Below, piece after piece: positions 48,001 through 54,000 of a DNA stretch of 64,000 nt. Below the pieces are notes generated by a model. It did no database searches. It was not told the DNA's origin and was given only the letters and a program-made list of their open reading frames with translations. Within the stretch, counting starts at the first letter, position 1, and each line of letters opens with the position of its first letter. Source of the stretch: Ylistrum balloti (lineage: Eukaryota). The position numbers and the translations under genes were made by a program. The stretch lies in contig NW_026782194.1 in assembly GCF_031769215.1 (NCBI RefSeq), forward strand, positions 248,001 to 312,000. Direction: 5' to 3'.

Positions 48001-51000
48001 GATACCTCACTTGAGTCTCTGTTTCAGGTTCCAGGGTAAAGATTACCATTTATTGATATCTATAGAAAACCTCCAACCATTTCATAGCTATTGTGTTGAC
48101 ACTTCAAGCATGGAAGTGTTGGCACTCATGTACCACCATCATTTTCTGATTAATTTGATTGTCACTAAAAGTATCAGATGACTAGGTTGATGACCATTAG
48201 GTGTTTAATTATAACCTGATATTTTGAGAATTAGGGATGGCAACTTCAATACTTGTCAGGTTGACTTCATTGTTTGCAAGTACTTCCAATTATTTGACAT
48301 ACATGTAACTAACGCATTAAGAATTTTTTCTAGAAATTTTATGTATTTCAGATCTAAGGCATTTAAAGGAGGCAAAACTTGGACATCTTGTCAAATTTTT
48401 ATAATTCTTGTTTACGATAAAAATTCCATAACGTTGGAAAAGAGTGACAGGCATATTTTGTGTAAATAGTGATACCATTGTTTTGTAGTGCTGACTCTCC
48501 CGTGTTGTGGTTGAGAATTGACCCAGACATGCACCTACTTAGTCAGGTAACCTGGGAACAGCCAGACTTTATGTGGCAGTACCAGTTGAAGTTTGAGCGA
48601 GATGTGGTCGCACAGAAAGAGGTAAGGAAAGTATCTGTCTTGTCAGAATTCATTTTAGAAGTCGAGTACAGATGTCTCTCACATAAAATGTCTCCTGGAA
48701 GTAAAGCCGGGGCTGTTATGTTAAACCTTAAACATTGGTGCAAGAAAGACTTCCAAGTGTTTTTGTTGCTTTTAAGCACAAGTCTGGTGTATTTCTTTAT
48801 CATTGCTTTAAAAAATGCTGATACTTAAAGAACGTAAAAATGATGCATTAATTCCTTACATTACTTAACAGGAAACTGAAAAACAACAATCTGGATTGGA
48901 AAAAAATAAAAATAAATAAATAAAAAAAAAGATAAAAAAAAAACCTGGATTGAGTTAATGGATTTTATTTTGTATATCTTAGGCTATTGTTGCATTAGAG
49001 AACTACCCAACAGCTGCTACTAGGAAAGCTTTGACAGACACATTAGAGAATGAGCACTGTTTCTACCGGGTTCGCATGGAGGCCTGTCTCTGTCTGTCAA
49101 AGGTGAGTATTCCACACTGGAGAATGAGCACTATTTCTTCTGTGTTCGCAAGGAAGCCTGTCTCTGTCAGATAACATGTGATAATGGAATTAATGTCATT
49201 TGCTACCATTTGAAATGTTAAATAAATGTATAAAGATTGTTTGTCGTCTGAAGTTTTTTGTTATTACAGGTAGCCAATTCAATGGTCAATAACTGGGTGG
49301 GACCTCCTGCGATGATCACTATCTTCCGTAAACTGTTCGGGTCACATTCCTGTCCGAACATCGTCAGACAAAACAACTTTTCCAAGCTACAGCATTACTA
49401 TCTTCTAAAGGTAGGAACTCAATCTGTATTGTAATTAATATTAAATTGAATAATAAAATACTGGCAGCTTATATTAATTTTCTAGTTGTGGCAATTTTCA
49501 AAATTTAGAAAAAAAAGGGCCCAACAATTTTTTGTGATATCTGAAACACCTTGCTCTAAATTCTGTATTTATGTATTTTGTGATATTTTTACCATTGTAG
49601 ACCATCCCTTTTGCCATGGCCCACCTCCGGAGTATCCAAGCCATCTGTCCCCAGGAAGTTCTCCGCTTTATTCTGGAACTTTTCAAATACAACGATAATA
49701 GCAAAAACAAAGTATGTTATTGTTTTTTTTTGACCAGCTTTTCACCAGTCCTTAATATGTATACCTGAACAGGCTTGTACATCAGTCCCTCATAATTAAT
49801 CATTATGTACTGATATTTCAGTCTATTAATATAGTGTAATTGTACAGACTCATAAGTCACTCTAGTAAACATAAACACATATATTATACACAGTATACTC
49901 AGTTAGGAGTGTTTTATTTATATACAATGTTAATTTCCAGGTATACTGTATCGATTCTTTACAATTAAGCATGTCATGATGTCAACAGAAATGTATAGGT
50001 ATATTAATGTGTTGTAGTACTCTGACAACTACTACAGAGCTGCTCTGTTGGATTCTCTAGCAGCCACTCTGACTCCTGCTGTCACTATCATCACTGGTCT
50101 TGGGTAAGTTGTCAATCATTTTACACTAGCTTAAATTCAAATATAGACTGAATGTCAGAGAAAGAGGCTCAATTCTTGGACACTGTGCTGTAGAAAGCCA
50201 ATTTTCTTATGGAAAACATGAAACATCCACTGTAATGATGTTACTAATCCATTTCATTCGCAACAGGTTCGGGATAAGTTGATTTTTATTCGTGTGAAAT
50301 GTCTACCGGTTTCGCCCGAACAGTGGGCTTCTTCAGGACAGAGTATAAACAATTTTTTACCCCTAAGGTACTGAAAATCGGGAGAAAGTTTTCATTGTTA
50401 TTTATGACGTCTTACAATAGACATCACATGATCATAAAGTAACGGTTAAAATTCTATGATATTCCTTCACGGTTACTGTTATCATTTTTAGTTTAATTTT
50501 CGGAATTAACAGTGAAAAAAATTTTTAAAGTTCATATGCGATAGTTTCTAATATGGTGGTACAAGATATAAACATATGTATATTGCATAGTCATTCTTCT
50601 GATCTTAATAGACTAGTCATCATAGACTCGTTCATCTAGGCACACCGTCGACGTAGACTCCGACTGGTAACCTAACCTCCGGTAATCGACCGTAGACGAT
50701 ATGTTAGAGTTTGACGCTGTATCATCACTATCAGATAATTCCAAGTCTTTCTTTAGTTCTTCTAGTGCTAAATCCAAAACCGGTCGATAGTTTTTATGGG
50801 CTGGTCCGACTGTGTCGTATGGGCCCTCCGCTGGTTTCAATCTGAATTTCACTTGTTGTAGTTGTTTCTTTGTCAGCACCTCGAACGGGCTCTTATCCTC
50901 CGGTTTAGTTGCGTTCATTCTGGTGTCATCCTGGAAAATTTCAGGTTCCACTTGGTATCCTGGGTGTTTTTTCTTTAAATGTTCTTTGTACGCCCCTTTC

Positions 51001-54000
51001 CTTCCATAAGTATGTTTACAAATTTTGCATCGGTGCCATGTTTTCAGCATGGTGTGTACTTTATCTGCATGTCTTCTCAGGTTTTCTAAACTTGAGTACG
51101 TTTTGCCGCATTTTATGCACAGTATTCTCGGCTTTACTTGCGTCTTTTGATCTGTTGCCTGTTTCCTTGGTGTTTGTTTCGTACGCGCCATCACGATATA
51201 ATATTAAGACCTTCTGGCTGCGTTGTTCTCAATATCCTGATCCAACTCTCTTCAATTCTCAGGCGACGGTTGTTATCACTGACGTTCGATAACAGACCGG
51301 TGACTATGACGTCACTGGTACTGTGACCTGGCGACGTGAAATGTCCCGCCACCGGCTTGTCTGGGTGTTTGTTAATGATGCTATACAGATGATTGCGGAT
51401 GCGTGTATTTATCGTCGTCGATGTTTGTCCGACATACTGCATACCGCATTTTTTACATGATATTAGGTACACCGCGTTCACACTTTGGCATGTGATCTGT
51501 CCCTGTACTTTATATTCTGATCTGGTAGTGTGACTTGTGAAGTGGATAGTGGGTTTCATATGCGCACATATTCTGCAGTTTTTTCCGCACGGACAACTGC
51601 CCGGTCGGATAGAGTCACAACCGTCGCCTGAGAATTGAAGAGAGTTGGATCAGGATATTGAGAACAATGCAGTCAGAAGGTCTTAATATTATATCGTGAT
51701 GGCGCGTACGAAACAAACACCAAGGAAACAGGCAACAGATCAAAAGACGCAAGTAAAGCCGAGAATACCGTGCATAAAATGCGGCAAAACGTACTCAAGT
51801 TTAGGAAACCTGAGAAGACATGCAGATAAAGTACACACCATGCTGAAAACATGGCACCGATGCAAAATTTGTAAACATACTTATGGAAGGAAAGGGGCGT
51901 ACAAAGAACATTTAAAGAAAAAACACCCAGGATACCAAGTGGAGCCTGAAATTTTCCAGGATAACACCAGAATGAAACGCAACTAAACCGGAGGATAAGC
52001 GCCCGTTCGAGGTGCTGACAAAGAAACAACTACAACAAGTGAAATTCAGATTGAAACCAGCGGAGGGCCCATACGACACAGTCGGACCAGCCCATAAAAA
52101 CTATCGACCGGTTTTGGATTTAGCACTAGAAGAACTAAAGAAAGACTTGGAATTATCTGATAGTGATGATACAGCGTCAAACTCTAACATATCGTCTACG
52201 GTCGATTACCGGAGGTTAGGTTACCAGTCGGAGTCTACGTCGACGGTGTGCCTAGATGAATGAGTCTATGATGACTAGTCTATTAAGATCAGAAGAATGA
52301 CTATGCAATATACATATGTTTATATCTTGTACCACCATATTAGAAACTATCGCATATGAACTTTAAAAATTTTTTTCACTGTTAATTCCGAAAATTAAAC
52401 TAAAAATGATAACAGTAACCGTGAAGGAATATCATAGAATTTTAACCGTTACTTTATGATCATGTGATGTCTATTGTAAGACGTCATAAATAACAATGAA
52501 AACTTTCTCCCGATTTTCAGTACCTTAGGGGTAAAAAATTGTTTATACTCTGTCCTGAAGAAGCCCACTGTTCGGGCGAAACCGGTAGACATTTCACACG
52601 AATAAAAATCAACTTATCCCGAACCTGTTGCGATTGACTTATATACTTTGGTTTCCCCTATTCCTTCAATCGCCCTGCATACCGGGTGGTATCCGGGCAA
52701 GGGATATAAAGAACCAACGGAACCTTAATAAAAGTCAAGGCGTTGGCTCTACCCCTGGATTTACGTAATCCATTTCATTGTTATGTCAGGATGCTAGCAC
52801 ACCCTACATCAGTACACTAATGATATTAAGAGAACATGCTATTTATTAGCCCACCATCCTCGAATGGTTTGCTGTATAAATCACCTTTTGTCTGTAGCTA
52901 TGGTTTGGCTTTCCTTAAAAAATTGTTGTCATTGATATTTCTTCAGAAGTGCTGGATGTATCATTTACAAATTTCATATGTAAGTTTCTCTTGGTCCCTA
53001 ATTGTTTGTTTTCCTATTTTAGTCTGCCATGTCACACGAGGTGGGCTGATCAGATAAGTTATTGTGAGTGGTCAGTGGTCCATAAGCAGTTCTTGTTATC
53101 GCTACTCCCTAGAAACATTCCTTGGGATTTTTTTCTGAACTGTCAGTATATATGTCCCTTGGTCCCTAATTAGTCGTGATTTTCTGATATATCTGATTTC
53201 AAGATGGCCACCAGTAGTCATATTGGGATTTAGCAGGAAAGTTTGATATTTTTCCTTTTCCAAAACTATCAAAGGTGATTAGTGTCCATCTTTTAATTGC
53301 TGTGTTGATGTTGAACTTATTTTTCAGACGAGCATATCTAGTGTTGATGATGGTTCTACTGTTTGCTTTGTTCCCATCTGGAAATGTGACATTACTTACT
53401 GATATTTACATGACAGATGTCGTCCATGAAGACATTTTGCAGGAAAACCTGTAGGTCTTTTCCTCCTTGTACCATTTGAGGGGTCTCTATAGAAATCTTT
53501 CCTTTGTTCATATTTTACCCTAGTTTCATAAAATTTGAGTTTGACTTAGGATTCTTTCGACATGTTGGTATTGTGTGTGTTATCATGAAATACTGGAGTA
53601 ATATTTATGTAGATTTCTGTTTGTGTCTTATTGTCCTCGGTCAGTGTTCAGAGTAAATAATTAGACAGATGACAAAAGAAGAGAAGAGATCAACTTAACA
53701 TAGACTTGATACAGAACTTATGCTGGTGGATGCCCAGATCTCTCTGGGATCTTTTGTGTGTAATAAGGAAAGAATTTCAATGGACAATCTGTCATAGAAA
53801 TTTTACCATGCGTTAATTCTACAGTGAGGGTCCATCGATGGACAGCCTGACAACAGAGACGAAGCAGATCCTCGAGGAGATCACACGCTGCCTTAACCTC
53901 GACAAATTACTGCCATGTTACCATCACACTGTGACTGTCAGGTGAGGCAATTTACTTTCACACTGTGACTGTTAGGCAAGACAAATTACCATCACATCGA

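What the first reader, a model, noticed from the sequence alone, without database searches (positions are those of the whole stretch)
50613..51191. Retroelement-borne histone H3-tail mimic fused to two C2H2 zinc fingers
Seen: the PLE pseudo-LTR holds an intact 192-aa ORF starting [13 protein letters not shown]. This matches 8 of the first 9 residues of histone H3 (ARTKQTARK) and also reads like H3 1-6 joined to H3 16-22 (PRKQLAT). Two canonical C2H2 fingers and an acidic tail follow, with no histone fold. Established: Met is removed before Ala, leaving the free A1-R2-T3-K4 end that PHD fingers, LSD1 and K4/K9 methyltransferases recognise, and H3-tail mimicry is known from influenza NS1 and SNAG-domain factors. 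PLEs normally encode one RT+GIY-YIG ORF. Inference: this is a PLE accessory protein that binds nucleic acid through its fingers and decoys or recruits H3K4/K9 readers and writers, for example to escape silencing. I do not know of such a module described in PLEs, but could not search.
Basis: partly seen in the sequence, partly recalled or inferred. Interest (0 to 1): 0.93.

Follow-up and report, generated by a model that had tools for sequence, protein, structure and literature searches.

The report
Retrotransposon gene with histone-like tail
A group of scallop jumping genes carries a conserved extra gene whose protein starts like the tail of histone H3, has two zinc fingers of the DNA-binding type and a short motif that host proteins use to recruit the Mediator transcription complex, so it may help the element keep itself switched on.

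Summary
Observation confirmed and extended. The 192-aa ORF is the last gene of a clade of Penelope-like elements (PLEs). It has 148 matches in this genome, starts at or within 5 nt of the GIY-YIG stop in 40 of 41 copies examined (TRATG overlap in 19), is under strong purifying selection, and has relatives in Pecten and Argopecten. Six related PLE ends lack it.

The H3 likeness is real but partial. Across 37 distinct N-termini K4 is kept in 35, T6 in 32 and K9 in 28, but R2 in only 9; 8-of-9 matches occur in 4, in both deep clades. The 'H3 16-22' reading is not conserved, and silent sites show no recent capture from host H3.

New here: an LxxDLxLS motif plus acidic run in 17 of 20 proteins, the published MED26-binding consensus of AF4/EAF. 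A matching core lies just downstream of the host EAF match.

Best model (about 0.5): a chromatin-acting trans-activator or anti-silencer. No binding, translation or target was shown. Seven literature searches found no description; Repbase and Dfam were not searchable. The scan had not noted this protein on other DNA.

The parts
50245..50258 (.). left target-site duplication (14 bp)
   Evidence: identical 14-mer at both ends of the insertion
50259..51273 (-). 3' pseudo-LTR arm: last EN codons, accessory ORF, 3' UTR, hammerhead
   Evidence: inverted repeat arms 50254-51273 / 51617-52637, 98-100% complementary; exact left edge read by eye against the TSD
50300..50340 (-). minimal type-I hammerhead ribozyme motif (CUGAnGA, stem II, GAAA, palindromic loop 3)
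   Evidence: motif read from sequence; same motif downstream of the ORF in 12 of 15 loci; architecture as in PMC4209133. Rfam found nothing and fold z-scores are near 0
50405..50410 (-). CRE-like ACGTCA hexamer in the 3' UTR / pLTR
   Evidence: present in 11 of 12 stop-to-hammerhead segments; a similar site is visible in PLE ends without the ORF, so not ORF-specific; CRE label recalled
50613..51191 (-). accessory ORF (ORF3), 192 aa, open
   Evidence: purifying selection between subfamilies
50733..50756 (-). LxxDLxLS motif (residues 146-153), followed by a Ser/Asp-rich run
   Evidence: 17 of 20 aligned proteins; D149 and S153 invariant; predicted helix 138-153; consensus defined in PMC8387021
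50964..51029 (-). C2H2 finger 2 (residues 55-76); Arg at helix position -1
   Evidence: Pfam; R at -1 in 19 of 19 proteins with fingers
51054..51119 (-). C2H2 finger 1 (residues 25-46); Arg at helix position 6
   Evidence: Pfam; R at 6 in 19 of 19 proteins with fingers
51162..51188 (-). H3-like N-terminal nonapeptide (codons 2-10)
   Evidence: 8/9 identity to host H3; silent sites saturated against subfamily B and against the H3 gene
51189..51193 (-). TGATG overlap: EN stop codon and ORF3 start codon
51191..51613 (-). 5'-truncated C-terminus of the PLE RT-EN protein: CX3CxxC linker finger and GIY-YIG domain
   Evidence: PF01541; 99% identical to full-length copies carrying RVT_1
51617..52765 (+). 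inverted pseudo-LTR copy with ~130-nt tail; holds a frameshifted ORF3 (51699-52278) and a second hammerhead (52551-52591)
52766..52779 (.). right target-site duplication (14 bp)

Best explanation
One clade of Neptune/Nematis-type PLEs in scallops carries a conserved last ORF. SHOWN: the gene exists, follows the endonuclease stop, is kept by protein-level selection, and has three conserved modules: a short tail anchored to the N-terminus in H3 register (K4, T6, R8-K9), two C2H2 fingers with base-reading arginines, and an LxxDLxLS plus acidic motif. INFERRED: it is made by termination-reinitiation from the element's RNA and loses its Met. It binds DNA, probably the element's own repeats, and acts as a compact trans-activator or anti-silencer. 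The LxxDLxLS segment would dock on a TFIIS-N-terminal-type domain such as MED26, as in host EAF/AF4. The tail would engage an H3-tail-binding enzyme or reader that needs a free N-terminus and K4/K9 but tolerates loss of R2.
For: 148 matches, 30-100% identity. EN stop within -1 to 5 nt of the start in 40 of 41 loci. Silent sites saturated in 64 of 66 pairs; dN/dS 0.075 and 0.30 in the other two. Codons 2-10 of subfamilies A vs B: pN 0, pS 1.0. H3 matches total 172 against shuffle mean 50, maximum 76, and at most 49 in slid registers. 8/9 matches on both sides of a 100/99 branch: 4 of 37 seen against 0.18 expected if positions were independent (related sequences inflate this). LxxDLxLS in 17 of 20 against 0 in 190,669 background residues. 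PMC8387021 and PMC6339877 passages define it as the MED26-binding motif. A stop-terminated DLQLS plus Ser/Asp run lies about 6 kb downstream of the host EAF match on the same strand, and MED26 is present in this genome. Finger residues R6 and R-1 in 19 of 19.
Against: R2, central to most H3 N-tail readers (PMC8166343), is kept in only 9 of 37; some open subfamilies keep just 1-2 of 9 H3 residues (L010, L017, L025). In 16 of 37 the tail reads T-P at 6-7, which also fits a CDK site or basic DNA arm. LxxDLxLS is short and also fits a leucine-rich export signal (recalled). In the human system DLXLS plus SDE without the NKW motif did not activate transcription (PMC8387021). No profile similarity of the C-half to the AF-4 or EAF Pfam families or to any PDB chain. 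No conserved ORF-specific binding site was found in the UTRs. Translation and binding were not shown.
Confidence: 0.5

Rival explanations
1. The protein is a real nuclear regulator, but its tail works as a basic nuclear-import or DNA-binding arm with a cell-cycle kinase site; the H3 likeness is a relic of origin or matters only in a few subfamilies.
For: R2 9/37, Q5 4/37, A7 2/37; T-P at 6-7 in 16/37; open subfamilies starting MPNLKK, MGDSKK or MEKKRK.
Against: K4 stays fixed relative to Met while the spacer to the finger varies from 17 to 34 aa, which an import signal would not need (inference). 8/9 H3 matches persist in both clades with saturated silent sites.
Confidence: 0.2
2. It is a self-limiting repressor or decoy: the unmodified tail recruits NuRD or LSD1 as N-terminal motifs of host zinc-finger repressors do, and the DLxLS segment sequesters MED26 rather than using it.
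For: Unmethylated H3-like N-termini of zinc-finger factors bind NuRD (PMC8166343). DLXLS plus SDE without NKW is not activating. Pro follows Met in 8 of 37, as in SNAG repressor tails (SNAG likeness recalled).
Against: The NuRD-binding examples satisfy the M-Z-R-X-K rule, which 28 of 37 members do not.
Confidence: 0.12
3. It is a Rev-like shuttling protein: basic tail for import, fingers binding the element's RNA, and the leucine motif as a CRM1 export signal for unspliced PLE RNA.
For: Spacing hydrophobic-x2-L-x3-L-x-L in the alignment fits an export signal (recalled); PLEs retain introns (PMC8557442 passages).
Against: The invariant residues are D149 and S153, which match the MED26 consensus and are not required in export signals (recalled); the finger arginines are of the DNA-reading type (code recalled).
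Confidence: 0.1
4. It is an integration-targeting adaptor that tethers the RT-EN particle to active chromatin through a TND protein, as lentiviral integrase does with LEDGF.
For: TND hijacking precedent (PMC9987994 passages); co-translation with RT-EN would favour co-assembly (inference); this copy sits in a TAF2 intron.
Against: One insertion site is anecdotal; no contact with RT-EN was tested; 17 of 18 matches in one 80-kb cluster share a strand, which gene targeting does not explain.
Confidence: 0.08

Closest known systems
Neptune/Nematis-type EN+ Penelope-like elements (PMC8557442, introduction and passages)
   Same: RT plus C-terminal GIY-YIG, CX2-5CxxC linker finger, pLTRs in direct and inverted arrangement, hammerhead, TSD.
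   Different: Described as a single ORF, with an optional upstream ORF1 in the figure legend; here a further conserved ORF follows the EN stop inside the pLTR.
H3 N-terminal mimicry proteins, H3TMs (PMC8166343, passages)
   Same: Cleavable Met, small residue 1, K4; this copy satisfies M-Z-R-X-K and adds Q5, T6, R8, K9; several H3TMs are zinc-finger factors.
   Different: Transposon-encoded; only 9 of 37 family N-termini have R2; the conserved skeleton is K4/T6/R8/K9.
AF4/AFF and EAF DLXLS-SDE module (PMC8387021, PMC6339877, passages)
   Same: Exact LXXDLXLS consensus followed by a Ser/Asp/Glu run in 17 of 20 proteins.
   Different: No domain-level homology to AF-4 or EAF; no NKW tripeptide in the aligned C-termini (by eye); joined to its own fingers.
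VANC anti-silencing proteins of VANDAL transposons (PMC6719617, passages)
   Same: Accessory gene of a transposon family, plausibly sequence-specific and acting on chromatin in trans.
   Different: Plant DNA transposon; no similarity seen in any search here; the anti-silencing role here is only inferred.
SART1 and calicivirus UAAUG termination-reinitiation (PMC10275272, passages)
   Same: Stop and start codons overlapping or adjacent after a long ORF.
   Different: Here the coupled ORF lies downstream of RT-EN; no TURBS or downstream structure was tested.

Membership tests
EN+ Penelope-like element | RT with C-terminal GIY-YIG endonuclease | tested here: met
   RVT_1 and GIY-YIG in full-length copies L087 and L088; window fragment 99% identical
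EN+ Penelope-like element | pseudo-LTRs, direct or inverted, with TSD | tested here: met
EN+ Penelope-like element | minimal hammerhead in the pLTR | tested here: met
   core motif in 12 of 15 loci; Rfam negative; cleavage not tested
Neptune/Nematis clade | CX2-5CxxC finger between RT and EN | tested here: met
   CX3CxxC in L087, L088 and L089
Neptune/Nematis clade | RT phylogeny groups with reference elements | not tested
   no reference RT set was fetched
H3 N-terminal mimicry proteins | M-Z-R-X-K at the N-terminus, this copy | tested here: met
H3 N-terminal mimicry proteins | M-Z-R-X-K as a family-wide feature | tested here: not met
   9 of 37 distinct N-termini, one of them with a non-ATG start
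H3 N-terminal mimicry proteins | binds H3 readers or is modified by H3 writers | not testable with these tools
   needs peptide assays
AF4/EAF DLXLS module | LXXDLXLS consensus followed by an SDE-rich run | tested here: met
   17 of 20; 0 in 190,669 background residues
AF4/EAF DLXLS module | binds the MED26 N-terminal domain | not tested
AF4/EAF protein families | domain homology (PF05110, PF09816) | tested here: not met
   no such hit among 12 proteins or 11 C-halves at E<=10
Histone H3 / H3 variants | histone fold | tested here: not met
   no Pfam histone hit; the model shows two fingers and isolated helices
PRDM16/EVI1 (RefSeq names given to two copies) | PR/SET domain and long finger arrays | tested here: not met
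   the named proteins are 178-183 aa with two fingers; the sibling scanned has only finger hits

The most novel reading that the evidence does not exclude
An animal retrotransposon encodes its own miniature chromatin regulator that imitates two host signals at once, the histone H3 tail and the EAF/AF4 Mediator-docking motif. It uses them, through sequence-specific fingers, to keep its own copies transcribed: a VANC-like anti-silencing system in animals, with subfamilies retuning the tail around fixed K4 and K9.
Probability: 0.35. Interest if true: 0.93.

Novelty: new variant of a known kind. Interest (0 to 1): 0.8.

Why it matters
PLEs are described as single-ORF elements (PMC8557442), and the clearest transposon-encoded anti-silencing protein in the review read here is from a plant (PMC6719617, passages). 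A conserved accessory protein with a histone-like tail and a Mediator-docking consensus offers small, testable handles (a 10-mer, an 8-mer, two fingers) on how an animal retroelement may counter silencing or secure its own transcription. The natural tail series (K4/T6/K9 kept, R2 lost) is a ready specificity panel for finding the host partner. It also corrects annotation: two copies are named EVI1-like and PRDM16-like host genes in RefSeq.

Tried and rejected
Word-indexed protein search with the single ORF: 0 of 41 candidates passed; with the alignment, 6 of 1039, of which 5 are full-length relatives and 1 a finger-only match. Only near lengths were searched, so fused forms are not excluded.

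JGI metagenome scans: 0 of 599 stretches; 5 of 334, all matching only the finger region; four of the five were read and are unrelated proteins. ESM Atlas: only generic finger or unnamed clusters. Foldseek: nothing at E<=0.001; best Tramtrack fingers 2drp, E 5e-3.

Rfam: no hammerhead hit; folding z-scores -0.05 to -1.76, so the ribozyme rests on motif conservation.

A recalled wider resemblance to the AF4 ELL-binding region was tested and not supported: PF05110 found nothing in the genome (uninformative, nothing rang in the controls), nor in Pfam or PDB scans.

Recent capture of a host H3 gene rejected: silent sites saturated. 'H3 16-22' reading rejected. The search for a finger target in the UTRs gave only the ACGTCA site, also seen in ORF-less PLE ends.

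Expression: no RNA holder listed. Runs guessed to be RNA have contigs over ORF3 and EN, but RNA status is a guess and contigs cannot show a transcript.

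Full report
OBSERVATION. The ORF is real: 51191->50613, minus strand, 192 aa, two C2H2 fingers and no histone fold. Its first nine residues after Met match the host's own H3 gene at 8 positions. 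The chance of that is 6e-10 to 9e-7 depending on the composition assumed, and 138 unrelated C2H2 proteins score at most 3 of 9. AlphaFold2 gives confident fingers (pLDDT 80-93), a coil tail and a helix at 138-153, with pTM 0.34.

ANATOMY. The insertion spans 50259-52765 between 14-bp target duplications, in an intron of a TAF2 gene whose exons flank it on the plus strand. It is a 5'-truncated PLE with ~1-kb inverted arms: a GIY-YIG C-terminus, then the ORF starting inside the EN stop (TGATG), a 3' UTR and a minimal hammerhead motif. The inverted arm holds a second ORF copy broken by one base. Near-full-length copies elsewhere show an upstream ~200-aa ORF, then RT with a CX3CxxC linker and GIY-YIG, then this ORF. 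The upstream ORF and RT are in different frames in L031, L032 and L088 and fused in L087; the extra base of L087 is absent from the contigs of two runs laid on it. The element therefore most likely has three ORFs. Identical proteins carry RefSeq names from Ylistrum balloti, so the host is very probably this scallop.

A FAMILY, NOT A ONE-OFF. The ORF has 148 matches in the genome (150 of 407 candidates scored). I examined 41 loci chosen because their 5' end was in hand. In 19 the start overlaps the EN stop as TRATG, in 21 it lies 0-5 nt behind it (L045 read), and one lacks EN. Some are near-identical copies and five keep only the last EN codons. As a control I fetched 14 further stretches. Six with a clear, more distant EN end have no such ORF before the hammerhead; two were ORF-bearing relatives; five belong to other elements and gave no ORF match; one had no EN hit. 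Outside the genome, full-length relatives came from Argopecten irradians, Pecten maximus and unnamed Logan/ENA assemblies; their genomic context could not be fetched. One contig from a coded second organism covers both EN and ORF (run X2, record 10).

SELECTION. Among 12 subfamily representatives silent sites are saturated in 64 of 66 pairs while pN is 0.09-0.54; the two measurable pairs give dN/dS 0.075 and 0.30. Four young copies differ by 8 replacement and 1 silent change, four of them private to the window copy. That is post-insertion drift, so this particular copy is open but not shown to work.

HOW H3-LIKE IS THE TAIL. Among 37 distinct N-termini, decayed copies included, the H3 residue is kept as follows: A1 18, R2 9, T3 22, K4 35, Q5 4, T6 32, A7 2, R8 22, K9 28; positions 10-15 at most 5. 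A Met-cleavable residue follows Met in 35. The total of 172 matches compares with a shuffle mean of 50 (maximum 76 in 20,000) and at most 49 in slid registers; these sequences are related, so this shows register, not independent events. The register is fixed to Met while the spacer to the first Cys varies from 17 to 34 aa. Matches of 8/9 occur in four N-termini on both sides of a 100/99 branch of a tree built without the tail (23 rows; two long branches flagged). Between subfamilies A and B codons 2-10 have pN 0 and pS 1.0, and against the host H3 gene silent sites are saturated too: the peptide is selected as protein and was not captured recently. Against strict mimicry: 28 of 37 fail the M-Z-R-X-K definition (PMC8166343, passages), some open subfamilies keep only 1-2 residues, contigs of the second organism show Q5 changed beside two silent changes, and T-P at 6-7 (16 of 37) also fits a kinase site or DNA arm (recalled).

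THE MISSED MOTIF. The best conserved C-terminal signal is L146-x-x-D149-L150-x-L152-S153 plus a Ser/Asp/Glu run: 17 of 20 proteins, none in 190,669 background residues. PMC8387021 (passages) gives LXXDLXLS as the consensus of the AF4/EAF motif that binds MED26, followed by the SDE motif; PMC6339877 agrees (passages). In this genome a stop-terminated DLQLS plus Ser/Asp run lies about 6 kb downstream of the EAF domain match on the same strand; assigning it to EAF is my inference. MED26 with its N-terminal domain is present. Caveats: the motif is short and also fits an export signal (recalled); DLXLS plus SDE without NKW did not activate in the human system; there is no domain-level similarity to AF-4 or EAF; the structural test could not be run. 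The fingers keep Arg at position 6 of finger 1 and at -1 of finger 2 in 19 of 19 proteins, as DNA-reading fingers do (code recalled); no target site was found. Further invariant residues (A94, P102, E104, F116, T182, D186, E187) are unexplained.

MECHANISM. Most likely (about 0.5) the protein is made by termination-reinitiation (precedent in PMC10275272, passages), binds the element's DNA, docks MED26 or a related TND, and uses its free, K4/K9-bearing tail to engage or divert an H3-tail enzyme, so keeping copies transcribed. Existence, coupling geometry, selection and motif conservation are shown; translation, binding, target and sign of effect are inferred. Rivals: basic arm or import signal (0.2), self-limiting repressor or decoy (0.12), Rev-like export (0.1), integration tether (0.08). 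That it is a selected accessory protein at all I put at about 0.97.

PRIOR KNOWLEDGE. Seven searches of the open library listed no paper on a 3' zinc-finger ORF in PLEs or on a histone-tail mimic encoded by a retrotransposon; most hits were seen as listings only. Read in part: PMC8557442 (passages, sections 3 and 11, one supplementary file searched without a hit for C2H2, Pecten or the start motif), PMC4209133 (part 1 of 4), PMC3846280 (passages), bioRxiv 10.64898/2026.07.22.740005 (part 1 of 5; supplements closed), PMC9987994, PMC6719617 and PMC10294476 (passages). Repbase, Dfam, subscription journals and unseen supplements may already hold such elements, with or without this ORF annotated. 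The scan's index had no look-alike by sequence and nothing for this genome; three notes describe H3-like motifs in unrelated genes.

VERDICT. A new variant of a known kind: a PLE clade with a conserved accessory gene of an unnamed family. Interest 0.8.

Noticed in passing
window 48466-53942 (+): The element sits in an intron of a host TAF2 gene; four of five plus-strand host frames scanned hit TAF2 Pfam families.
   Followed up: yes
G000:C281:511,000-593,000 (L006, L016-L018, L020, L030, L035, L041, L047, L053): Cluster of 18 ORF matches from many diverged subfamilies within about 80 kb, 17 on the same strand; may be a single-strand silencing cluster or a self-insertion hotspot.
   Followed up: no
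L067-L070, L101:5243-5848, L102:4015-4620: A different, near-identical multi-copy 187-aa two-finger ORF without the H3 tail or LxxDLxLS; in L102 it follows a gypsy-type pol directly on the same strand. A parallel 3' finger gene in an LTR element.
   Followed up: partly
L032:3160-3238, L088, L087: The upstream ~200-aa ORF overlaps the RT frame. An A-rich run at the overlap resembles a slippery site, but an in-frame ATG and similar basic residues upstream in both subfamilies point to a separate start.
   Followed up: partly
P0003, P0007: RefSeq names two of these transposon ORFs as EVI1-like and PRDM16-like proteins.
   Followed up: yes
L047: Rearranged copy in which the ORF's N-terminal half runs into RT sequence.
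   Followed up: no
window 52790-53720: Sequence between the right TSD and the next TAF2 exon looks by eye like a decayed fragment of another retroelement; two frames gave no useful Pfam hit.
   Followed up: partly
G000:C422:240,000-262,000 and C129: Tandem array of another GIY-YIG element with a 755-aa open frame, about 5.3-kb period; no ORF3 match downstream in the two copies read.
   Followed up: partly
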